Assembly: GCF_036507355.1 (NCBI RefSeq)
Contig: NZ_AP027877.1
Direction: 5' to 3' (one strand)
Source of the DNA: Escherichia coli
GTDB taxonomy: Bacteria; Pseudomonadota; Gammaproteobacteria; Enterobacterales; Enterobacteriaceae
Length of the DNA stretch: 64,000 nt
The position numbers and the translations under genes were made by a program. The notes under the pieces were generated by a model. That model worked only from the letters and a program-made list of their open reading frames with translations. It had not been told where the DNA came from and ran no database searches. How positions within the stretch are numbered: the stretch's first letter is position 1; each line of letters starts with the position of its first letter. Below are positions 46,711 through 59,116 of the stretch, piece by piece.

Positions 46711-46786
46711 TGGCTCCTCTGACTGGACTCGAACCAGTGACATACGGATTAACAGTCCGCCGTTCTACCGACTGAACTACAGAGGA
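46711..46786 (-). tRNA. asnV: tRNA-Asn (GUU)
   Basis: Minus strand is a 76-nt tRNA with anticodon loop CTGTTAA and CCA end; identical to the copies at 57216 and 59041. Confidence 0.95.
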
Positions 46787-49081: not shown

Positions 49082-49118
49082 CAAAAAGCCCGCTATAAAA
49101 GCGGGCTTTTCAGAAATC

Positions 49119-49135
49119 TGGCTCCTCTGACTGGA
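49119..49135 (-). other. 17-bp fragment of the tRNA-Asn 3' end (island boundary repeat)
   Basis: tggctcctctgactgga matches the 3' end of tRNA-Asn; with the 5-bp flank aaatc it is a 22-bp direct repeat of 57211-57232. Confidence 0.8.
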
Positions 49136-49808
49136 TGCGGATTTTGTTGTAGTTTATTGAATTTAAATGATTTTTATGAGTAGAATAAAAATAAGGCCCT
49201 TAGAAAGGCCCCTCAGATATTTTTGCTTAAAAAGATGATGTAAGTCACATTTTCAGGGGCTGTTACCTGGAGGTCTTAAAACCAACGAGAGGTCGTCATT
49301 CCTGGCGTATAGCGGGAATGCACCAGACATACAGAAACAGGGACTTGCACCAGCTTTAATATAGCTGGCTGCACCAGATCCTGGCGCTGCAAAAGTCCAT
49401 GATTGCGCCAGATTCTGAGGGATTACATCGATCTGAGCCAGAGTTGTCCCTTTGGGTTATAGCCTTTTCAGGTCAGGTGCTGTTACCCTTAGCTGGCCTT
49501 TACCCTTTTCCTTTTGACCGTCGGCTATGTGCCAAAAGCGGAATTCCAGTGGTTCTAGAAAAGCTATCATTCCATGGTCAAATTTTGTCGATCACTGCAC
49601 TTATGGAACCGCCATAACATAGGTAGATAGTTGAAGATAGCTAGAACGATGATAGATGATTTTCTTTACAGGGCTGACTTCTAGTCTATCTCATGTAATA
49701 CTCTATATTATATCTAATGTACAATATTAATAGCATTGTGATGTATCGACAACATGGATAGTCCACTGCTATTAAAACTATAATGACATTTAATTGAGAA
49801 ATATAAAA

Positions 49809-50826
49809 ATGACTCTATTAGAAAAATTGTTATCAAAAGGATACTTTCCTAAAGAAGCTCTCCCTCCTTTCTCTACGGAAAAATATGCACGCGCAATTGT
49901 GAATGGATACGATAATCTTCCCCAATTATTTAGAACCGGAAAATTCATAAGTAAGTGCGCTATTCATAATATTTCCAGAAAAGGTACATTACGGAGAAAA
50001 CTTGGAATACCTAATCCCATCAACTTCTTTAGATTAAGTGAGGCAATAACTGAAAATTGGTACGATATATATGAATGCGCAAGTGAATCAACAATATCGT
50101 TGACAACTCCAGACCCTGCCAGCAATGGCGGAAGAGCATTCAACCCAAAGCATTCATTAAATGAGCTTCCAGATATTCATGCAAAACTTAGAAGTAAACA
50201 TAAATATATACTTAAAACCGATATAAGCAGATTTTACCACTCAATATACACTCATAGTATTGCATGGACTTACCATACAAAAGATATTTCAAAAAGAAAC
50301 AGAAGCAATAGTTTATTTGGCAATGTATTAGACAAGCATTCGCAAGATTCGCAAGATGGACAAACAATAGGGCTCCCCATTGGTCCAGATACATCACTTA
50401 TCATAGCAGAGTCTCTGTTATCAAATATTGATCTTAAGCTTAGCGAAAAAGGCATTAGCAATGGCTTACGTTATATAGATGATTATTTCCTAGGGTTCAA
50501 TACAATTGGGGAAGCAGAATCTGCATTAACAATAATGCAGGAACTGTTAAACGAATATGAGTTAGCATTGAACCCCTTGAAAACAGAAATCATACAATTA
50601 CCAATTGAATTCGAGCCATTAGCAATTTCAGAACTAAGGGCATTTTCATTTAGAGATACAGCTGGCGGTCAGAAATCAGATTTAATGCATTATTTCAACA
50701 TAGCTTTCAAGGCAGCAAAAGATTTACCAACGGAACCAATATTAAAATATGCAGTATCAAGGACATTTGAAGTAAATGTTACTGCTGAAAACTATCCTGT
50801 TTTTGAAAATTTTATATTACAATGTG
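49809..50826 (+). pseudogene. Reverse transcriptase, N-terminal 339 codons, interrupted by IS1
   Basis: RT motifs DISRFYHSIY, GLPIGPDTSL, YIDDYF (YxDD) and LNPLKTEI; the frame runs straight into the IS1 end at 50827. Confidence 0.8.
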
Positions 50827-50881
50827 GGTGATGCTGCCAACTTACTGATTTAGTGTATGATGGTGTTTTTGAGGTGCTCCA

Positions 50882-51157
50882 GTGGCTTCTGTTTCTATCA
50901 GCTGTCCCTCCTGTTCAGCTACTGACGGGGTGGTGCGTAACGGCAAAAGCACCGCCGGACATCAGCGCTATCTCTGCTCTCACTGTCGTAAAACATGGCA
51001 ACTGCAGTTCACTTACACCGCTTCTCAACCCGGTACGCACCAGAAAATCATTGATATGGCCATGAATGGCGTTGGATGCCGGGCAACAGCCCGCATTATG
51101 GGCGTTGGCCTCAACACGATTTTACGTCACTTAAAAAACTCAGGCCGCAGTCGGTAA
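50882..51157 (+). CDS. insA: IS1 InsA (91 aa)
   Basis: Zinc-finger N-terminus CPSC...CSHC; canonical IS1 ORF. Confidence 0.95.
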
Positions 51158-51579
51158 CCTCGCGCATACAGCCGGGCAGTGACGTCATCGTCTGCGCGGA
51201 AATGGACGAACAGTGGGGCTATGTCGGGGCTAAATCGCGCCAGCGCTGGCTGTTTTACGCGTATGACAGGCTCCGGAAGACGGTTGTTGCGCACGTATTC
51301 GGTGAACGCACGATGGCGACGCTGGGGCGTCTTATGAGCCTGCTGTCACCCTTTGACGTGGTGATATGGATGACGGATGGCTGGCCGCTGTATGAATCCC
51401 GCCTGAAGGGAAAGCTGCACGTAATCAGCAAGCGATATACGCAGCGAATTGAGCGGCATAACCTGAATCTGAGGCAGCACCTGGCACGGCTGGGACGGAA
51501 GTCGCTGTCGTTCTCAAAATCGGTGGAGCTGCATGACAAAGTCATCGGGCATTATCTGAACATAAAACACTATCAATAA
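51076..51579 (+). CDS. insB: IS1 InsB (transposase catalytic part, made as InsAB by frameshift)
   Basis: Canonical IS1 second ORF overlapping insA. Confidence 0.9.
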
Positions 51580-51602
51580 GTTGGAGTCATTACCTACAAT
51601 GT

Positions 51603-51881
51603 GTTACAGCTGACAGTAGCACATTAAAATACACCGTCAATCAGCTTATAAAATACAAAAGAATAGGTTATGTTCAGAACGTTGAGAACATTTCGCATAT
51701 TTTGAGACAATTAGCAATAACTGAAAGCTCACTTGGCCATGGACACGAAGTTGCTTATTGCCTATGGCTTTATTTGATACTACGCATCCCCATACCAGAA
51801 GTCGTCGTTAAAAATGTGGTACCAATGAGAGATCCATTTGTTGCAATTTTGTTATGCGATTGCAGGCAAAAAACCTCATGA
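51603..51881 (+). pseudogene. Reverse transcriptase C-terminal 92 codons displaced by IS1
   Basis: With one copy of the 9-bp duplication removed, the RT frame continues without stops from 51603 to TGA at 51879-51881. Confidence 0.7.
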
Positions 51882-52171
51882 CTTTTATACCTGATTTCTC
51901 AATTTATGAGCAAATGATGGTGATGGAAGAGCTATCGGGCGATATGTAGATTTTTGTCTATGAGATGCTTGCAAAAGGATGGTTTCAACCATTATCAAAC
52001 CAAAATCCAATTAGTCAAAATGAGTGTTATAGGTTCCTATTGAATTCAGGTGTTTTTTTCTATAATGAACATCTCTCATTAACTATTATGGCTGAAAGTC
52101 CAATTGATACAGATGGCTCGGCAGAGGGATTCAGTGGTTGAAATTAAAAATTATCTGTAAATAACTAACCC

Positions 52172-52449: not shown

Positions 52450-53409
52450 TTATTCCTTCTTCCATTCGTGCGCGTAAACCTGCTTCACCCAGCGACCGCG
52501 CCCGTCGCCATGCCCCAGGTCCATCGCCACCATTGCCAGCGCCTCTTTTTCGCTGAATCCCTGCGCCAGATACCGGCGAATATCGTCCTGCGCCAGATAC
52601 CGGCGAATATCGTCCTGCGCCCAGGCGTAACGCAGCGAATGTGGGGAGTATTTGCCCGTCAGCCCCATACGCAAAGTCTGGTTGCGCCAGTATTTCATTG
52701 CCTGTTTAAGGCTTGCCGCATCAATCAGCCTGCCGTTGCGCAGTCCTGCCACCACAATGGCATTATCGAGCGCCCGTTTAACTGCGCCAGCATTCTGAAT
52801 AAGGGTATCGCGGGGCCGCCCGCCTTTGGTGCCAAACACGATGGTTAGCCGGGTGGCTCCACGTTCAAGCGACTGCCGCCACGTCAGCAATGAACGTGAA
52901 CAGCGTACCGCCTCCTGTGAACGTAACCCCATCAGCCGCGCCAGCTCCAGCGCTGCCGCCAGTCCTGCGTCTTTCAGCCGGGCAGTCTCTGCCATCTGTT
53001 GATAATATTCCGGCGTGATGGCTTTCCGTGTACCATTGCGGGATACGCCAGCCAGCCCCAGCGATTTATTCGATATCCGCTCACTCTGCGCCAGTTTTTC
53101 GCGCCCGGCCTGCGTCAGTATTTTACGGATAGCCGCCGTTTCGTTATGCAGCGTCTGTTTCTGAATACCCTGCGCCAGTCGCATCTGAATATACGCCTCA
53201 ATATGCTTCGCCTTTAAATGATGGACATAGCGTATCTGAACGTTCAGTTCCGTCAGTCGTTCGCAGAACCGTTCTGCCATGGCGATACGGTCATGGACAG
53301 TCTTGTGCGCCCCGCCAGCCTGCCGCGCCAGGTTTTTCATCTCTCTTTCCAGCATACCCATTTTGCTTTTCCTCTTATCTCGCTCCTGATTTTCACAAAA
53401 CCACAACAC
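52450..53409 (-). CDS. Tyrosine recombinase / phage-integrase-family protein with internal 9-aa tandem duplication (319 aa)
   Basis: C-terminal HSLRY...LGHGDGRGRWVKQVYAH resembles recombinase box II with catalytic Tyr; DDIRRYLAQ is duplicated through a 27-bp tandem repeat at 52561-52614. Confidence 0.6.
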   Translation of the reverse strand: MLWFCENQERDKRKSKMGMLEREMKNLARQAGGAHKTVHDRIAMAERFCERLTELNVQIRYVHHLKAKHIEAYIQMRLAQGIQKQTLHNETAAIRKILTQAGREKLAQSERISNKSLGLAGVSRNGTRKAITPEYYQQMAETARLKDAGLAAALELARLMGLRSQEAVRCSRSLLTWRQSLERGATRLTIVFGTKGGRPRDTLIQNAGAVKRALDNAIVVAGLRNGRLIDAASLKQAMKYWRNQTLRMGLTGKYSPHSLRYAWAQDDIRRYLAQDDIRRYLAQGFSEKEALAMVAMDLGHGDGRGRWVKQVYAHEWKKE

Positions 53410-54253
53410 ACAACGGATACAGCTTTCCCCGGCGCATAGGCCGATAGCCCCTGATTTTTGTCGGGGCTGCGAGCAGTACCTGAGCGCCGGGGCGACGGCT
53501 GTTGAGGTTTTGCGGGGTATCGGTTGTGCTCTCAGAGCAGCCGCCAGCGTGAGCTGGTCATCCCCCGGACCGTCCTGGTGGTCCCCCTCCGGTACTGGCT
53601 CATGTTCTCCTTTGGTGAATGAATGGTTGAAATAAATGCTGAAAAGCGACGTCAGAAGCTCGCCTGTGGCTGGAACAGTTGATATGACTGGTGCAGATGA
53701 AAATTTCTGCGGGCGTCAGTCTCTCACTCTGCGTGAGCGACTGACGCCCTGGTCTGGCGCAGGCGCTGAAAATTACACTCTGGTGCAGGATGGCGGCCAC
53801 GCGGCAGCAAATGCCTTCGGCAAATGCAGGCCGCAGCCCGTCATGTAAAGGGCGCTGGTAATCAGCAGGGTATAAGTGGGCCGGAGAAATTCCGGCAAAG
53901 AGAAACCGTGCAGCCGGTGAAGGCTGTTGCCGTTAAGCGATGACGATGAAGCCGTCCAGTGTATGTACTCTTAGCCTCAAACGCTTTCGCGTTCCGGTAT
54001 TGCGGAGGTCGTACCGGTAGCAGGGGGCTGGTCGTCCTGATAAATCAGGGGCTTCTTGCAGACCATGAAGCCAAAGGGGCTGTCAACCGACAGCTTATTG
54101 CAGGAGAGAGATTACACCGTAATTTCTGGCGCAGAAAGGGGAAACTCATTTTTCTGGAAATTGAGTTTCCCCCTGAATTTATGGAAAGTTTGTGAATGGA
54201 ACACTGCCGCGCTTCGCTTGTCGTCTCCCGGTGTGCGATTTGCTGTATCAGGA

Positions 54254-54502
54254 TCATCGCTTTCGCATGAACCTTTCCAGGCGATTACCTTTGCCGTCGA
54301 AGTATCTGGAAGGCCAGATGATCTCTGGAGCTATCTCCAGCGCATCTGCAATAAGTTTTTCTCCGCGCGGCCACGGGCGGGAAAGTGCATTTGCCAGTGT
54401 GGAAGAACTCAACCCTGCTTTACGCGATACCTCAGCCAGTGAGGTCCCTTTCTTTCTTAATCCGGCAATGATATCTGCCGGATGCCAGTCATCTTTATTC
54501 AT
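54254..54502 (-). CDS. Ner/Nlp-family DNA-binding protein (82 aa)
   Basis: DWHPADIIAGLRKKGTSLAEVSRKAGLSSSTLANALSRPWPRGE closely matches the Ner/Nlp family signature. Confidence 0.8.
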   Translation of the reverse strand: MNKDDWHPADIIAGLRKKGTSLAEVSRKAGLSSSTLANALSRPWPRGEKLIADALEIAPEIIWPSRYFDGKGNRLERFMRKR

Positions 54503-54614
54503 TGTTTTCCCCTGTTTCCAAATCTGGTTTTTCTGACTTTAGGAACTCTAAAGGCAATGAATCTTAAGGAATGCTAAAGATGGTGTCAATGTAACTATTA
54601 ACCAAACAGGTTAT

Positions 54615-54914
54615 ATGATCCCTGAACGACTCAAGGCAGCGAGGTTGCGGGCTAATCTCACCCAGGAACAACTGGGCGTTCGTGCAGGCATCGCCGAAGA
54701 TACGGCCTGCTCCCGGCTTTCTCAGTACGAAAGTGGAACACACAAGCCCACATTCAAAATGGTTTGTGCCTTTGCTCGTGTTTTGCATGTTCCTGAATGT
54801 TACTTCTATGCACAGGAAGACACTTTCGCCGAAGCGATTTTAAGGCTGTATGACGGTGAAACTGTGCAGTGGAATATAAAAACAGAGATCGTTCATCATA
54901 CTGAACGGGTATAA
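54615..54914 (+). CDS. XRE-family HTH regulator, copy 1 (99 aa)
   Basis: HTH region LTQEQLGVRAGIAEDTA...YESGTHKP; paralogue of the next gene. Confidence 0.7.
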   Translation: MIPERLKAARLRANLTQEQLGVRAGIAEDTACSRLSQYESGTHKPTFKMVCAFARVLHVPECYFYAQEDTFAEAILRLYDGETVQWNIKTEIVHHTERV

Positions 54915-55013
54915 ACCTCTTGCCTCATCCATCCTCTTTATGAACTCTAAAGAAAAATGCTCTTGAGGAATGCTAAAGATTACCGTCATAAATTCAAACT
55001 GATGGTAATTTCA

Positions 55014-55283
55014 ATGATCCCCAAACGCTTAAAAGAAGCCAGATTGCGGGCTAAACTCACTCAGGAAAAATTGGGGGTACTGGCGGGTATTGAAGAAGCC
55101 ACGGCTTATTCGCGTCTGTCACATTACGAGAGTGGTACGCATAAACCAACTTTTGATCTCGTTTGTGAGTTTGCCCGAGTACTCAATGTACCAGAATGCT
55201 ATTTCTATACGGTGGATGATGATTTCGCGCAGGCGGTGTTGGATCTTCATGCCAGGTGGACAAAGAGAACTACGGAAAGATAG
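55014..55283 (+). CDS. XRE-family HTH regulator, copy 2 (89 aa)
   Basis: MIPKRLKEARLRAKLTQEKLGV... about 60% identical to copy 1; start aligned to copy 1. Confidence 0.65.
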   Translation: MIPKRLKEARLRAKLTQEKLGVLAGIEEATAYSRLSHYESGTHKPTFDLVCEFARVLNVPECYFYTVDDDFAQAVLDLHARWTKRTTER

Positions 55284-55304
55284 ATCGCAGAAAATAAAAA
55301 ACCC

Positions 55305-55390
55305 CGCTGGTGAGGCAGGGTTCTTTATTTTTCGTTCTCAGACTGCTTATAGCGACCTGAGCAACGTTGCGCGACAATACAATCCTAGCA
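55305..55390 (-). ncRNA. Candidate antisense sRNA antitoxin (Orz/IstR-like), predicted from promoter, repeat and terminator
   Basis: Minus-strand promoter-like elements (-35 ttgcaa, palindromic, at 55419-55424; -10 taaact from 55396-55401); transcript would begin inside repeat 55369-55392 and end at a hairpin plus T-run near 55300-55335. Confidence 0.3.
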
Positions 55391-55418
55391 GAATAAGTTT
55401 AACCCGCTTTGTTTCCCG

Positions 55419-55448
55419 TTGCAAACAAACGCTCCCGGTCTTTATAAT
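55419..55448 (+). promoter_or_regulatory. Sigma70-like promoter for the toxin mRNA (-35 TTGCAA, 18-bp spacer, -10 TATAAT)
   Basis: ttgcaa at 55419-55424 and tataat at 55443-55448 on the plus strand; gives a 5' UTR of roughly 180 nt. Confidence 0.45.
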
Positions 55449-55634
55449 GCCAGACGCTGGGTTTATCACGTTTCAGGCCAGACCGATTTCAAGCCCTGAC
55501 TGCCGGACGGGTGGTGCCGCAGGCAGTGCCCCGGTCTGGAGCGTGATAATACAATCCTAGCAGATGTGATCCTGCGCCGACAGGCAATGTAAGGGTAAGG
55601 TGCAGGCGTTGCGCTCCTTTCATAAGGAGAGCGG

Positions 55635-55724
55635 ATGGACATGTTGACGCGAAAGCTGATCGTGCTCATCGCCGTACTGGAGCTTTTGCTGGCTCTGCTG
55701 CGGTTGATTGATCTGTTGAAATAA
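55635..55724 (+). CDS. Candidate type I toxin, 29-aa hydrophobic peptide MDMLTRKLIVLIAVLELLLALLRLIDLLK
   Basis: ATG at 55635 five nt after AGGAG; single predicted TM helix; similar in length and composition to ZorO/DinQ/TisB-type toxins; followed by a hairpin terminator. Confidence 0.55.
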   Translation: MDMLTRKLIVLIAVLELLLALLRLIDLLK

Positions 55725-55744
55725 TTCTCAGATTGAAACGCACC

Positions 55745-55770
55745 AAAGGGGAAACACCCGTTTCCCCTTT
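55745..55770. terminator. Bidirectional hairpin terminator between the toxin ORF and the integrase gene
   Basis: aaaggggaaac-accc-gtttccccttt with A/T runs on both sides. Confidence 0.6.
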
Positions 55771-55788
55771 AATAAATACGCTGCTTTG

Positions 55789-57066
55789 TTACGACGCCTG
55801 TTTCAGGCGGCGGGCATACTGGTAAGCTGAAACATACCCGTCACTGTTTGCATCAAGATAATCTGACCACCATTGCATCATCTCGATCCGCTCTTCCAGA
55901 TATTCAGCCTTGTGAATATACGCAGCGCGGACGCTGTTTCTTTCCTGGTGACTCATTTGTTTTTCAATCGCTTCTTTGCTCCACAGCCCCGATTCACTCA
56001 ACGCACTACATGCCATCGCCCGGAAGCCATGCCCGCAGACGTCTTTTTTGGTGTCATAGCCCATCACCCGCAGCGCTTTATTCACGGTGTTGTCGCTCAT
56101 GCACTTATCCTGGTCGTACTCGCCGGGAAAGATAAAGGCCAGATGACCGGAGAGGGCTTCGATCTGTTTCAGGATCGCAATTGCCTGATCCGACAGCGGC
56201 ACGATATGTTGAATTTTCATTTTCGACCCCCGGTAAGAGAAGCGCACATTTTCGATCTGCTCGCGTTCTTCCGCGATCACCCACAGCTTTTGCTGCCAGT
56301 CGATTTCACTCCAGCGAGCAAAGCGTAGCTCGCTGGAGCGCACAAAAAATATCAGTGACAACTTAAGGGCGTATTTCGTCAGCAGCCTGCCGCAGTAGTT
56401 ATCCGTACGGGTTAAAAGCTCTGGCAGCCTGTCCAGCGACAGGGCCGGGTAATGATTAGTCTCTGGCGCAGCAAATTCACCATCCAGATACAGCGCGGGG
56501 TTCGCTTTGAGCAACTGCTTTTTCATCGCGTAGTGCATGATGTCGGTGACATAGTTTTTCAGCCGGGCGGTGATCTCCAGAAAGCCTTTGCTCTCCACCT
56601 TACGCAGCGTGACCAGCAAATCCTCTGTTTCGATCTCCCCGATAAGGCGATCCCCGATATCCGGGAAAACATACATTTCCAGTCTGCGCATAACCGTTTT
56701 CGCGTAATGTTCAGACCAGCGTTTATGCTCGCCATGCCAGTTAGTGGCGACCTGGCTGAACGTCTGTCCGTTTTTCTTCTTCTGTTTCTCCGTCTGCTTC
56801 ACCGCAGCAGGATCGACGCCTGCATGAATGTTATTGCGTGCCGCTTCCCGTAAACGGCGAGCCTGCAACAGCGAGATCCCCGGGTAGGGGCCAAAGGCCA
56901 GCTTTTTCTCTTTCCCGTCGATACGGTACTTCATGTACCAGAGTTTTGAGCCATTAGGTTTGATCAACAGGTACAGTCCGGAACTGTCTGTCATTTTGAA
57001 AGGTTTGTCGGAGGGTTTGATCTTGCGAATCGTGGTATCTGTTAATGCCATAGCGGGGGGCTCCAT
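55789..57066 (-). CDS. P4-family tyrosine integrase (425 aa)
   Basis: N-terminal arm-binding domain (LTDTTIRKIKPSDKPFKMTDSSGLYLLIKPNGSKLWYMKYR) plus C-terminal catalytic domain; adjacent to the tRNA-Asn 3' end. Confidence 0.9.
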   Translation of the reverse strand: MEPPAMALTDTTIRKIKPSDKPFKMTDSSGLYLLIKPNGSKLWYMKYRIDGKEKKLAFGPYPGISLLQARRLREAARNNIHAGVDPAAVKQTEKQKKKNGQTFSQVATNWHGEHKRWSEHYAKTVMRRLEMYVFPDIGDRLIGEIETEDLLVTLRKVESKGFLEITARLKNYVTDIMHYAMKKQLLKANPALYLDGEFAAPETNHYPALSLDRLPELLTRTDNYCGRLLTKYALKLSLIFFVRSSELRFARWSEIDWQQKLWVIAEEREQIENVRFSYRGSKMKIQHIVPLSDQAIAILKQIEALSGHLAFIFPGEYDQDKCMSDNTVNKALRVMGYDTKKDVCGHGFRAMACSALSESGLWSKEAIEKQMSHQERNSVRAAYIHKAEYLEERIEMMQWWSDYLDANSDGYVSAYQYARRLKQAS

Positions 57067-57215
57067 TTGCTCACCGAACCGTGAGGCCCCCGATTAAGCC
57101 CACAAAAACTATGGATGTCAAGAAACCCGGTAGCCTCTTGTGAGACAACCGGGTAAAGATAAGTTCTTGTTTTTTAACTATCTCGAGACTCATAGAGATG
57201 TCTCAAAACTAAAAT

Positions 57216-57291
57216 CTGGCTCCTCTGACTGGACTCGAACCAGTGACATACGGATTAACAGTCCGCCGTTCTACCGACTGAACTACAGAGG
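57216..57291 (-). tRNA. asnU: tRNA-Asn (GUU), island integration target
   Basis: 76-nt minus-strand tRNA identical to the other copies. Confidence 0.95.
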
Positions 57292-57452
57292 AATCGCTGT
57301 TGAGGCACATCTTAACGGCGAAAAATCTTTTGTCAAACCCGATTTTTAAATTCCCCAACTGTTTGCCGTTTCTATCAACAGTTTGTTGCATTTGCAGACA
57401 ATTTGTTGGCGAAAATCTTTGCAGCTTTGCTGATTCTCCCTCATTATTTGAA

Positions 57453-59040: not shown

Positions 59041-59116
59041 TCCTCTGTAGTTCAGTCGGTAGAACGGCGGACTGTTAATCCGTATGTCACTGGTTCGAGT
59101 CCAGTCAGAGGAGCCA
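59041..59116 (+). tRNA. asnW: tRNA-Asn (GUU)
   Basis: tcctctgtagttcagtcggtagaacggcggactgttaatccgtatgtcactggttcgagtccagtcagaggagcca. Confidence 0.95.

What the first reader, a model, noticed from the sequence alone, without database searches (positions are those of the whole stretch)
54540..55283. Tandem duplication of an XRE-family HTH gene together with its upstream region
Two adjacent genes encode proteins about 60% identical (MIPERLKAARLRANLTQEQLGV... and MIPKRLKEARLRAKLTQEKLGV...). Their upstream regions also share blocks (gaactctaaag, ggaatgctaaaga). This is an old tandem duplication of a regulator unit of about 390 bp, located between the Ner-like gene and the toxin locus. They may be island repressors or antirepressors.
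Basis: seen in the sequence. Interest (0 to 1): 0.35.

Follow-up and report, generated by a model that had tools for sequence, protein, structure and literature searches.

The report
Paired controller-type regulators with duplicated operators
Two neighbouring small DNA-binding regulator genes on a small E. coli genomic island are ancient duplicates related to the 'controller' proteins of restriction-modification systems; each keeps its own pair of operator sites, and together with a divergent Ner-like gene they form a portable switch cassette that many mobile elements share.

Summary
XRE-A (54615-54914) and XRE-B (55014-55283) are 67% identical, and a 45-nt upstream block is 82% identical at a 399-bp period.

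The shared blocks are operators: two 17-bp palindromes per gene (CTTTAG-N5-CTAAAG type), 26 bp centre to centre. They occur only at these four places in 64 kb (0.09 expected by chance).

Both proteins belong to the 'motif 8' controller-protein class. C.Csp231I is the best match by sequence (E 6e-19) and by fold (rmsd 0.9 Å). Its operator is CTAAG-N5-CTTAG.

No restriction-modification system is present. The constant partner is a divergent Ner-like gene whose predicted promoter overlaps box 2.

The Ner/XRE/XRE trio recurs in Salmonella asn-tRNA islands, Klebsiella conjugative elements, Pectobacterium and Brenneria. Synonymous sites are saturated and dN/dS is 0.01-0.07. Operator sequence co-varies with residue 32.

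A near-identical E. coli island carries a different specificity cassette, so the pair here arrived by cassette exchange rather than by local duplication.

Most likely function: auto- and cross-regulating repressor/activators that gate the Ner-like gene. This is inferred, not shown.

Paired and orphan controller genes were already noted in 2009, so this is a new variant of a known kind.

The parts
54254..54502 (-). Ner/SfsB-like HTH gene (82 aa), divergent from XRE-A; the constant partner of the XRE genes
   Evidence: Pfam HTH_35 E 9e-34; NCBIfam SfsB 118.6 bits, below its cut-off of 150; PHROG 769 transcriptional repressor. A Ner-like gene lies divergently upstream of the XRE gene(s) in 41 of 51 assessable loci.
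54561..54589 (-). Promoter-like site for the Ner-like gene (TTGACA-17-TAAGAT). Box 2 of unit A lies inside its spacer and -10 region
   Evidence: Consensus scan, 10/12 match. The TGTCAA and ATCTTAAGG stretches are invariant in all lineage-1 unit-A regions, and the equivalent TTGACT-17-TAACAT is present in lineage 2. Not mapped experimentally.
54537..54553 (.). Operator box 1 of unit A (O_A1): perfect palindrome CTTTAG-GAACT-CTAAAG
   Evidence: Invariant half-sites with a variable 5-bp spacer across 12 lineage-1 loci. Same 5-N5-5 architecture as the C.Csp231I operator CTAAG-N5-CTTAG (PMC4321490).
54563..54579 (.). Operator box 2 of unit A (O_A2): CTTAAG-GAATG-CTAAAG, imperfect left half; 26 bp centre to centre from box 1
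   Evidence: The 26-bp box1-box2 offset is constant in every locus.
54615..54914 (+). XRE-A, motif-8 controller-protein-class HTH (99 aa; Cys32, Arg34, Gln37, His43)
   Evidence: PADLOC Control_protein PDLC03667 E 2.4e-22. C.Csp231I E 5.6e-19. AlphaFold model pLDDT 91, Foldseek to 4jcy/3lfp rmsd 0.9 Å over 80 columns, 49% identity.
54936..54952 (.). Operator box 1 of unit B (O_B1): CTTTAT-GAACT-CTAAAG
   Evidence: The G-to-T change at position 6 is found in all 10 lineage-1 unit-B copies from tandem pairs.
54962..54978 (.). Operator box 2 of unit B (O_B2): CTTGAG-GAATG-CTAAAG
   Evidence: G at position 4 in all lineage-1 unit-B copies, against A in all unit-A copies.
55014..55283 (+). XRE-B, motif-8 controller-protein-class HTH (89 aa; Tyr32, Arg34, His37, His43); the better conserved paralogue
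   Evidence: PADLOC Control_protein E 4.3e-24. 84-92% identical orthologues in Salmonella, Klebsiella, Citrobacter and Huaxiibacter. dN/dS 0.009-0.027.
54490..55290 (.). Swapped specificity cassette: 5' tip of ner, both operator pairs, XRE-A, and the DNA-binding part of XRE-B
   Evidence: Window against the island of E. coli E2 (L002): 93-99% identity outside, 37-76% inside. The last long identical run ends at 54489 and full identity resumes at 55290, with a 23-nt identical run at 55188-55210.
55296..55371 (-). Context: OrzO-like antisense RNA with a terminator that probably also ends XRE-B transcription
   Evidence: Rfam OrzO-P 47.8 bits, below the gathering score of 60, E 3.8e-5. Terminator-like site 55316-55301.
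55635..55724 (+). Context: ZorO-like 29-aa hydrophobic type I toxin ORF
   Evidence: Translation MDMLTRKLIVLIAVLELLLALLRLIDLLK. 24-nt repeat 55369-55392 / 55541-55564.
55789..57066 (-). Context: P4-type tyrosine integrase next to tRNA-Asn (57217-57292). The island is bounded by 22-bp direct repeats at 49114-49135 and 57212-57233

Best explanation
XRE-A and XRE-B are ancient tandem paralogues of the 'motif 8' controller (C)-protein class of HTH regulators (C.Csp231I / C.EcoO109I type). Here they are detached from any restriction-modification system.

Shown by sequence comparison:
- Each gene carries two 17-bp palindromic operators just upstream. Box 1 is distal and perfect or near-perfect. Box 2 is proximal with a degenerate left half. 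They are 26 bp apart centre to centre.

Inferred by analogy with C.Csp231I (distal operator activates, proximal represses):
- Dimers first fill the best site (box 1 of unit A) and the weaker sites at higher concentration.
- This gives homeostatic autoregulation of both genes and cross-regulation between them, because both units share the CTAAAG half-site and both proteins share Arg34 and His43. Residue 32 is Tyr in XRE-B and in every other lineage-1 protein, but Cys in the window's XRE-A.
- Box 2 of unit A lies inside the predicted promoter of the divergent Ner-like gene, and box 1 lies just downstream of its predicted start. Occupied operators should therefore shut off ner.

Inferred from the conserved Ner/XRE pairing, from a Photorhabdus precedent and from the cassette swap:
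- The three genes form a self-contained switch or 'immunity' cassette of mobile elements.
- In a naive cell without XRE protein, ner fires. Once the XRE proteins accumulate it is silenced.
- Different cassettes (protein residue 32 plus matching operators) define non-cross-reacting types.

Why two copies are kept is not settled. The consistent differences between unit-A and unit-B operators and the Gln37/His37 difference suggest graded affinities and divided labour.
For: Family:
- PADLOC Control_protein, E 1e-22 and 1e-24.
- Best solved relative is C.Csp231I, E 5.6e-19.
- Model pLDDT 91 superposes on the C.Csp231I-DNA complexes at 0.9 Å.
- Arg34 and His43, invariant in motif-8 proteins (PMC3115060), are kept.

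Operators:
- Four sites only in 64 kb against 0.09 expected.
- Half-sites are invariant while flanks and the box-1 spacer vary across about 40 loci.
- The 26-bp offset is fixed, and no further site occurs within 8 kb either side in 34 loci.

Protein-DNA co-variation:
- Tyr32 proteins go with CTTTAG..CTAAAG.
- Arg32 proteins go with GTTCAG..CTAAAC.
- A Pandoraea homologue with Ser32/Ala33/Gln37, as in C.Csp231I, has the exact C.Csp231I site CTAAG-N5-CTTAG.
- Residue 32 contacts bases in the crystal structure (PMC4321490).

Selection and age: dN/dS 0.01-0.07 among orthologues with saturated synonymous sites.

Ner link:
- Divergent Ner-like gene in 41 of 51 assessable loci.
- The only conserved neighbour besides integrases.
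- Promoter TTGACA-17-TAAGAT overlaps box 2.

Regulatory logic of the class: C.Csp231I activates through OL and represses through OR (PMC4824078).

Precedents:
- Photorhabdus XreR1 (C.BclI-like XRE) represses the Ner-like xreR2, and the two form a bistable switch (PMC7905540).
- C.Csp231I-like Xre proteins are co-opted as repressors in I-F3b CRISPR transposons (bioRxiv 10.1101/2020.07.02.184150).

Cassette behaviour:
- Backbone 93-99% identical, cassette 37-76% identical to the island of E. coli E2.
- In three genomes with two typed modules, the modules are of different specificity types. These are Pectobacterium betavasculorum, Brenneria sp. 4F2 and Yersinia aleksiciae. A fourth, Dickeya oryzae, has a second copy that is N-terminally truncated.
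Against: - No binding, transcription-start or expression data exist for these proteins. Promoter positions are consensus guesses, and the plus-strand XRE promoters could not be placed with confidence.
- Operator spacing (9-bp gap between 17-mers, 26 bp centre to centre) differs from C.Csp231I (18-bp gap). The two dimers would sit on opposite DNA faces, so the activation/repression logic may not transfer.
- The model shows helix 6 but no helix 7, which supplies much of the C.Csp231I dimer interface (PMC3115060).
- The Gln37/His37 rule of McGeehan et al. does not predict the operators here. Gln37 proteins of lineage 2 have the 'His-type' A14 half-site.
- The window's XRE-A has Cys32 where all relatives have Tyr32, and the island's cargo is decayed. 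This particular copy may be impaired.
- The Ner-like gene did not co-vary with the swapped cassette (96% identical to L002). Its target is therefore unknown, and so is the output of the switch.
- Orphan XRE genes on plasmids keep the minus-strand promoter-like element without a Ner gene.
Confidence: 0.65

Rival explanations
1. The XRE genes are controllers of an adjacent toxic or defence gene, as C proteins are for restriction endonucleases. They would delay or cap expression of cargo placed next to the cassette, and the Ner link would be secondary.
For: - C proteins do exactly this (PMC2632904, PMC4824078).
- Outside the asn-tRNA islands, a variable same-strand gene follows XRE-B at 37-64 bp. 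It is an HNH nuclease with weak restriction-enzyme hits in Klebsiella conjugative elements, a PDC-S19/DUF3644 candidate defence gene in Dickeya, and unknown proteins elsewhere.
- The island family carries variable defence-type cargo: a DRT4/6-like reverse transcriptase here and KwaB and others in Salmonella.
Against: - In this window XRE-B is followed by a terminator and then genes on the other strand.
- No operator copy lies near the reverse transcriptase, the integrases or zorO, nor within 8 kb in 34 loci.
- Many loci (Rahnella and others) have Ner plus XRE in a conserved chromosomal setting with no such cargo.
Confidence: 0.15
2. One paralogue works as a partner or antagonist of the other through heterodimers, in the manner of SinR/SlrR, or of a repressor and antirepressor. 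The active species would be an A-B heterodimer that reads the asymmetric boxes.
For: - Box 2 and the unit-B boxes are asymmetric, with a perfect right half and a variant left half.
- The paralogues differ at base-contacting residue 37 (Gln in A, His in B) (PMC4321490).
- In Photorhabdus the two regulators appear to interact (PMC7905540).
Against: - Klebsiella-type A proteins also have His37, and lineage-2 pairs are Gln/Gln, yet they show the same operator asymmetry.
- Single-copy modules work with the same two-box layout.
- Both proteins keep complete HTH domains and their own operators, which does not suit a pure antirepressor.
Confidence: 0.12
3. The genes are inert remnants of a destroyed restriction-modification system, or an addiction (toxin-antitoxin-like) pair with the Ner-like protein.
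For: - Sorokin et al. proposed that many orphan C genes are remnants of R-M systems (PMC2632904).
- NCBIfam gives weak hits to HipB/Y4mF-type antitoxins, E about 1e-3.
- The Ner/XRE duo persists in the Rahnella core genome without other mobile-element genes.
Against: - There is strong purifying selection on both genes and on four non-coding operators across genera.
- No R-M genes are consistently nearby.
- Divergent transcription is atypical for type II toxin-antitoxin pairs.
- Ner-family proteins are DNA-binding repressors, not known toxins.
Confidence: 0.06

Closest known systems
C.Csp231I (Citrobacter sp. RFL231) and C.EcoO109I: 'motif 8' controller proteins of type II restriction-modification systems
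   Same: - 47-49% identical core and the same fold (rmsd 0.9 Å).
- Invariant Arg34 and His43.
- Two palindromic 5-N5-5 operators upstream of the regulator's own gene, with the related half-site T.AG/CT.A.
- Residue 32 tracks operator sequence, as expected from the crystal contacts (PMC3115060, PMC4321490, PMC4824078).
   Different: - No endonuclease or methyltransferase partner.
- The gene is duplicated.
- Operators are 26 bp apart centre to centre, not about 33.
- The half-site is CTAAAG, of the T4/A14 type.
- Helix 7 is not predicted.
- The partner gene is a divergent Ner-like regulator.
Paired and orphan C-protein genes catalogued by Sorokin et al. 2009 (for example the tandem motif-8 pair Bxe227/Bxe226 of Burkholderia xenovorans)
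   Same: - Two same-motif C-type genes side by side, outside R-M loci.
- The authors already speculated that such pairs control more complex circuits.
- They found that only about 23% of new C homologues sit in R-M loci (PMC2632904).
   Different: That work listed loci only. It did not report the Ner-like partner, the duplicated and differentiated operator pairs, the spread in Enterobacterales mobile elements, or the cassette exchange. I did not compare the Burkholderia pair directly.
XreR1/XreR2 epigenetic switch of Photorhabdus luminescens
   Same: A small C-protein-like XRE regulator (XreR1, closest to C.BclI) and a Ner-like protein (XreR2) are genetically clustered. XreR1 binds both promoters with sub-nanomolar affinity and represses the Ner-like gene. 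The pair gives bistability (PMC7905540).
   Different: XreR1 belongs to a different C-protein class. The genes are separated by a ccdAB-like operon and are not divergent. There is no tandem XRE duplication. The locus is chromosomal and controls cell-form switching. Homology to the present genes was not tested here.
Xre regulators of type I-F3b CRISPR-associated transposons
   Same: C.Csp231I-like proteins of about 100 aa co-opted by a mobile element. C.Csp231I-type motifs lie in their own promoter. They act as repressors, allowing a burst of expression on entry into a naive host (bioRxiv 10.1101/2020.07.02.184150).
   Different: Single copy. An additional operator lies in front of the tniQ-cas operon, so the target is defined. 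No Ner-like partner.
BswR (PA2780) of Pseudomonas aeruginosa, PDB 4o8b
   Same: Second-best solved relative (E 3e-15, 40% identity). A chromosomal regulator of this class that is not part of an R-M system (PMC3985676).
   Different: A longer protein that regulates rsmZ and motility. Single gene, different context.

Membership tests
Motif-8 controller (C) proteins (C.Csp231I / C.EcoO109I class) | Sequence and fold of the five-helix HTH core, with the extended recognition helix | tested here: met
   phmmer to 3lfp, E 5.6e-19 over residues 2-77. PADLOC Control_protein 77-83 bits. Foldseek rmsd 0.9 Å, 49% identity, TM 0.78-0.84.
Motif-8 controller (C) proteins (C.Csp231I / C.EcoO109I class) | Invariant Arg34 and His43 on the DNA-binding face | tested here: met
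   Both residues are present in XRE-A and XRE-B. Arg34 is invariant in 43 aligned homologues and His43 nearly so (PMC3115060).
Motif-8 controller (C) proteins (C.Csp231I / C.EcoO109I class) | Two palindromic operators (5-6 bp arms, 5-bp spacer) upstream of the regulator's own gene | tested here: met
   Boxes at 54537-54553 and 54563-54579, and at 54936-54952 and 54962-54978. The gap between boxes is 9 bp, against 18 bp in Csp231I and 25 bp in EcoO109I (PMC4321490).
Motif-8 controller (C) proteins (C.Csp231I / C.EcoO109I class) | C-terminal helices 6 and 7 forming most of the dimer interface | tested here: inconclusive
   The model of XRE-A has helix 6 (residues 69-79). Residues 80-99 are coil with pLDDT 51-82, and XRE-B ends at residue 89. 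Only a monomer model was made.
Motif-8 controller (C) proteins (C.Csp231I / C.EcoO109I class) | Genetic linkage to a restriction endonuclease and methyltransferase (the functional definition of a C protein) | tested here: not met
   No R-M gene is present in the 8.1-kb island. No conserved R-M neighbour was found in 54 loci. These should therefore not be called C proteins in the functional sense; they are orphan homologues of that class.
Motif-8 controller (C) proteins (C.Csp231I / C.EcoO109I class) | Concentration-dependent activation (distal site) and repression (proximal site) of its own promoter | not testable with these tools
   Needs reporter titration as in PMC4824078.
Phage-type CI/Cro (or Mu Repc/Ner) immunity switch | Two divergently transcribed regulators sharing an operator region with overlapping promoters | tested here: inconclusive
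   Divergent ner and XRE-A are separated by 112 bp. The predicted ner promoter overlaps box 2. Start sites have not been mapped and Ner binding sites are unknown.
Phage-type CI/Cro (or Mu Repc/Ner) immunity switch | Residence in a phage genome and control of lytic genes | tested here: not met
   No tblastn match in 50,697 phage records. The contexts are integrative islands, conjugative elements, plasmids and chromosomes.
Type II toxin-antitoxin HTH antitoxins (HipB / Y4mF / MqsA type) | Co-transcribed adjacent toxin gene | tested here: not met
   Only weak family hits, E 1e-3 to 1e-2, far below the cut-offs. No toxin-family gene lies in an operon with either XRE. The nearby zorO is a type I toxin with its own RNA antitoxin.
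XreR1/XreR2-type Ner/XRE bistable switch (Photorhabdus) | A C-protein-like XRE regulator paired with a Ner-like regulator, the former repressing the latter | tested here: inconclusive
   The pairing is conserved, in 41 of 51 loci, and the operator overlaps the ner promoter. Repression and bistability cannot be tested here, and sequence relatedness to XreR1/XreR2 was not checked.

The most novel reading that the evidence does not exclude
The Ner/XRE-A/XRE-B unit is a portable two-repressor 'immunity cassette' that sets the specificity type of small integrative islands and conjugative elements.

In this reading, the DNA-binding halves of the regulators and their four operators are exchanged as one block between otherwise identical elements. 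Co-resident or incoming elements of a different type would then escape each other's repression. The switch would decide when the element expresses its transfer or establishment functions after entering a naive cell.
Probability: 0.25. Interest if true: 0.6.

Novelty: new variant of a known kind. Interest (0 to 1): 0.4.

Why it matters
Controller proteins are textbook timing devices of restriction-modification systems. Most of their homologues, however, sit outside such systems, and nobody knows what those do.

This locus offers a clean and widespread test case:
- Two diverged copies, each with its own tuned operator pair.
- A fixed Ner-like partner.
- Clear protein-operator co-variation.
- A natural cassette swap between near-identical islands.

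If the proposed logic holds, it would explain how small defence-carrying islands and some conjugative elements control themselves and tell 'self' from related elements. It would also supply orthogonal repressor-operator pairs for synthetic circuits.

If it does not hold, the finding remains an ordinary pair of paralogous HTH regulators.

Tried and rejected
1. Reading the Gln37 (A) / His37 (B) difference through the published rule (Gln37 goes with A4/T14, His37 with T4/A14) to predict a heterodimer on the asymmetric box 2. Rejected as a test. Lineage-2 proteins are all Gln37 yet have A14 half-sites, and Klebsiella-type A proteins have His37.

2. Taking the conserved GATGGT near the start codons as a C.Csp231I-like -10 box (TATGGC) for a leaderless mRNA. 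Its distance from the ATG (6-8 nt) fits a Shine-Dalgarno element better. I could not place the plus-strand promoters reliably.

3. Deciding between one ancient duplication and several. Bootstrap support for the deep nodes is only 18-51%. The question is left open.

4. Looking for further operators that would reveal target genes. None occurs at up to 1 mismatch in the window or in the 16-kb flanks of 34 loci.

5. Searching for a phage origin. No match in the phage collection.

6. Asking whether ner, the EFASI RNA and the Integrase_1 gene form one operon driven by the XRE-controlled promoter. A strong hairpin followed by a T-tract (54138-54172) after ner makes this unlikely.

7. Explaining the att-like 22-mer at 54520-54541 (17/22 match to the island's att repeat) as a trace of tandem island accretion. 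It does not fit the swap boundaries and is absent from relatives. It remains unexplained.

8. Heterodimer modelling was not attempted. The structure tool returns no interface metrics.
Full report

Yes. The region holds two same-strand genes, XRE-A (54615-54914, 99 aa) and XRE-B (55014-55283, 89 aa). RefSeq annotates both in E. coli G4/9, whose chromosome is 100% identical over 54200-55800. Across the wider region the window differs from G4/9 mainly by an IS1 insertion.

The proteins are 67% identical over 90 residues, E = 3e-43. The similarity covers the whole core and is not confined to the HTH motif.

A 45-nt non-coding block upstream of each gene (54537-54581 and 54936-54980) is 82% identical. 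The repeat period is 399 bp.

The motif CTTTAG-N5-CTAAAG, allowing one mismatch, occurs four times in the 64-kb window. All four are here, against 0.09 expected; 0 of 100 shuffles reached 4.

**2. What the shared upstream blocks are**

Each block consists of two 17-bp palindromes.
- Unit A: CTTTAG-GAACT-CTAAAG (54537-54553) and CTTAAG-GAATG-CTAAAG (54563-54579).
- Unit B: CTTTAT-GAACT-CTAAAG (54936-54952) and CTTGAG-GAATG-CTAAAG (54962-54978).

The right half-sites are always perfect. The left half-sites are graded. The two boxes are always 26 bp apart, start to start.

**3. What the proteins are**

- Pfam sees only generic HTH_3/HTH_31 domains.
- The PADLOC 'Control_protein' model scores 77-83 bits, E 1e-22 to 1e-24.
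- The best solved relative is C.Csp231I, the controller protein of a Citrobacter restriction-modification (R-M) system, E 5.6e-19. Next is BswR of Pseudomonas (4o8b).
- An AlphaFold model of XRE-A (pLDDT 91) superposes on the C.Csp231I-operator complexes at 0.9 Å over 80 columns with 49% identity.

C.Csp231I and C.EcoO109I form the 'motif 8' class. The published facts about this class are:
- They bind CTAAG-N5-CTTAG at two operators upstream of their own gene.
- Ser32, Gln37 and His43 contact bases.
- Arg34 and His43 are invariant.
- The distal operator activates and the proximal one represses (PMC3115060, PMC4321490, PMC4824078).

XRE-A and XRE-B keep Arg34 and His43. Position 32 is Cys in A and Tyr in B. 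Position 37 is Gln in A and His in B.

**4. Comparative evidence**

*Where the genes occur.* Homologues of XRE-B at 85-92% identity are common in Salmonella, Klebsiella, Citrobacter and other Enterobacterales. Context look-ups show the same three genes in the same arrangement: a Ner-like gene on the minus strand, then XRE-A and XRE-B on the plus strand. This trio occurs in two settings.
- Salmonella islands next to a P4-type integrase, with variable cargo.
- Klebsiella conjugative elements.

A scan of one genome per species returned 54 loci:

| Configuration | Loci |
|---|---|
| Ner / XRE / XRE trio | 23 |
| Ner plus one XRE | 18 |
| Orphan XRE | 10 |
| Truncated contig | 3 |

Plasmids carry single copies, in 378 records. 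No phage record has a match. Clustering of neighbouring genes finds no conserved partner other than the Ner-like gene and integrases.

*Selection.* Synonymous sites are saturated between the paralogues and between most orthologues. dN/dS is 0.01-0.07.

*Operator conservation.* Upstream alignments show invariant half-sites in otherwise free-drifting intergenic DNA. Unit-A and unit-B operators also differ in consistent ways. In lineage 1, box 1 position 6 is G in unit A and T in unit B, and box 2 position 4 is A in unit A and G in unit B. Lineage 2 has analogous differences.

*Protein-DNA co-variation.*
- Tyr32 proteins sit behind CTTTAG..CTAAAG.
- Arg32 proteins sit behind GTTCAG..CTAAAC.
- A Pandoraea homologue with the C.Csp231I residues (Ser32/Ala33/Gln37) has the exact C.Csp231I operator.

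This co-variation is the strongest computational evidence that the boxes are the binding sites of these proteins.

**5. History of the duplication**

In a neighbour-joining tree, lineage-1 proteins group by position rather than by locus. This lineage includes the window, Salmonella and the Klebsiella elements. Bootstrap support is 80% for the B clade, 70% for A1 and 100% for A2.

Two further pair lineages exist. These are the Arg32 type (E. coli E2, Pectobacterium, Brenneria) and a third type (Cedecea, Citrobacter). Deep nodes are weak, at 18-51%. I cannot say whether there was one duplication or several.

Some single-copy modules look like collapsed pairs. In L038 and L041 the protein belongs to the B clade but the operators are of the A type.

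**6. How the pair came to be in this island**

The pair was probably not created in this island. The island of E. coli E2 (L002) is 93-99% identical to the window through the EFASI RNA, the ner gene, zorO and the integrase. Between about 54490 and 55290 it is only 37-76% identical and carries the Arg32 type.
- The left breakpoint lies in the first codons of ner.
- The right side is mosaic inside XRE-B, around codon 60.

The DNA-binding parts and the operators have therefore been exchanged as a block.

In three genomes with two typed modules, the two modules belong to different types (Pectobacterium betavasculorum, Brenneria sp. 4F2, Yersinia aleksiciae). A fourth genome, Dickeya oryzae, has a second copy that is N-terminally truncated. 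The sample is small but fits the idea of specificity types.

**7. Proposed mechanism**

What the sequence shows:
- Two operators per gene.
- All four operators share one half-site. Arg34 and His43 are the same in both proteins. Residue 32 is Tyr in XRE-B and in every other lineage-1 protein, but Cys in the window's XRE-A.
- A consensus promoter for ner on the minus strand (TTGACA-17-TAAGAT, 54589-54561). Its spacer and -10 region contain box 2. It is conserved in unit A of both lineages and lost in lineage-1 unit B.

What I infer:
- XRE dimers auto-regulate and cross-regulate xreA and xreB, by analogy with C.Csp231I.
- They repress ner by occupying its promoter.
- The graded operators give sequential occupancy.
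- The three genes together make a switch.

Two precedents support this. In Photorhabdus, a C-protein-like XRE (XreR1) represses a Ner-like regulator (XreR2) and the pair is bistable (PMC7905540). In I-F3b CRISPR transposons, C.Csp231I-like repressors are co-opted to give a burst of expression on entry into a naive host (bioRxiv 10.1101/2020.07.02.184150).

What remains unknown:
- What Ner controls.
- Whether the two XRE proteins form heterodimers.
- Where the xre promoters start.

Caveats:
- The 26-bp operator spacing differs from that of C.Csp231I.
- Helix 7 is not predicted.
- The window's XRE-A has Cys32 where all relatives have Tyr32.
- The island's cargo is decayed. The DRT-type reverse transcriptase is split in G4/9 and hit by IS1 in the window.

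**8. Comparison with what is known, and novelty**

By sequence, fold and operator architecture these are members of the motif-8 C-protein class. They fail the functional definition of a C protein, which requires linkage to an R-M system. I therefore file them as orphan homologues of that class.

Sorokin et al. (PMC2632904) had already reported two relevant points. About three quarters of newly found C homologues are not in R-M loci. Eight loci hold two C genes, including a tandem motif-8 pair in Burkholderia, and the authors speculated that such pairs act jointly.

I found no description of the following in the searched literature:
- The Ner/XRE/XRE trio.
- Its differentiated operator pairs.
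- The residue-32/operator co-variation.
- The cassette swap.

**Verdict**

This is a real, conserved and probably functional regulatory cassette. It is a new variant of a known kind and is of moderate interest.

Noticed in passing
window 53470-53603 (-), with 52450-53409 (-): A full-length EFASI RNA motif (Rfam RF02957, 112 bits, E 3.5e-23) lies directly upstream of a second recombinase gene (Pfam Integrase_1 PF12835 plus Phage_int_SAM_2). This gene and the Ner/XRE/XRE trio are conserved together in the Salmonella, Klebsiella spallanzanii and Brenneria islands.
   Followed up: partly
window 52560-52613: A perfect 27-bp tandem duplication inside the Integrase_1 gene gives an in-frame repeat of DDIRRYLAQ.
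   Followed up: no
window 49794-52141; IS1 at 50827-51594: The island's cargo is a DRT4/DRT6-like defence reverse transcriptase (PADLOC E 2e-148). It is already split into 431-aa and 87-aa ORFs in E. coli G4/9. In the window it is also interrupted by IS1 with a 9-bp target duplication. The defence gene is decaying.
   Followed up: partly
window 55296-55371 (-), 55635-55724 (+), repeats 55369-55392 / 55541-55564: A zorO/orzO-like type I toxin-antitoxin locus. It has a 29-aa hydrophobic ORF and an OrzO-P-like RNA (47.8 bits, below Rfam's gathering score of 60). A 24-nt direct repeat would let the antisense RNA pair with the toxin's 5' UTR.
   Followed up: partly
window 54520-54541: A 22-mer matches the island's att direct repeat (49114-49135 = 57212-57233) at 17 of 22 positions. 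It sits between the ner start codon and operator box 1. It is absent at this place in related islands. My rough chance estimate is about 0.003-0.006. Unexplained.
   Followed up: partly
window 49114-49135 and 57212-57233; tRNA-Asn at 46711-46786, 57217-57292, 59041-59116: The 8.1-kb island is bounded by 22-bp direct repeats. The right repeat includes the 3' end of the tRNA-Asn gene between cbl and yeeO. Related islands sit at another asn tRNA gene, next to mtfA.
   Followed up: yes
window 54138-54172: An 11-bp-stem hairpin (GGGGAAACTCA...TGAGTTTCCCC) is followed on the minus strand by TTTCTGC. It is probably the terminator of the Ner-like gene. The terminator scan missed it because its loop is 13 nt.
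   Followed up: no
L008 8295-9155; L026 8317-10304; L017 8306-9862; L018 8322-9641: Outside the asn-tRNA islands, XRE-B is followed at 37-64 bp by a variable same-strand gene. Examples are an HNH nuclease (weak restriction-enzyme hits), a PDC-S19/DUF3644 candidate defence protein, and proteins with no family. This looks like a cargo slot under possible XRE control.
   Followed up: partly
L042-L054 (Rahnella species): A Ner plus single-XRE duo sits at one conserved chromosomal position in about ten Rahnella species. Several neighbour gene families recur across these loci, and I did not annotate them. No integrase homologue was detected in these loci, so the module seems to persist on its own.
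   Followed up: no
L013 3925-3990 (pYE854); L014 3927-3990: Orphan XRE genes on Yersinia and Serratia conjugative plasmids keep both operator boxes. They also keep the minus-strand TTGACG-17-TAACAT promoter-like element, although no Ner-like gene lies upstream.
   Followed up: no
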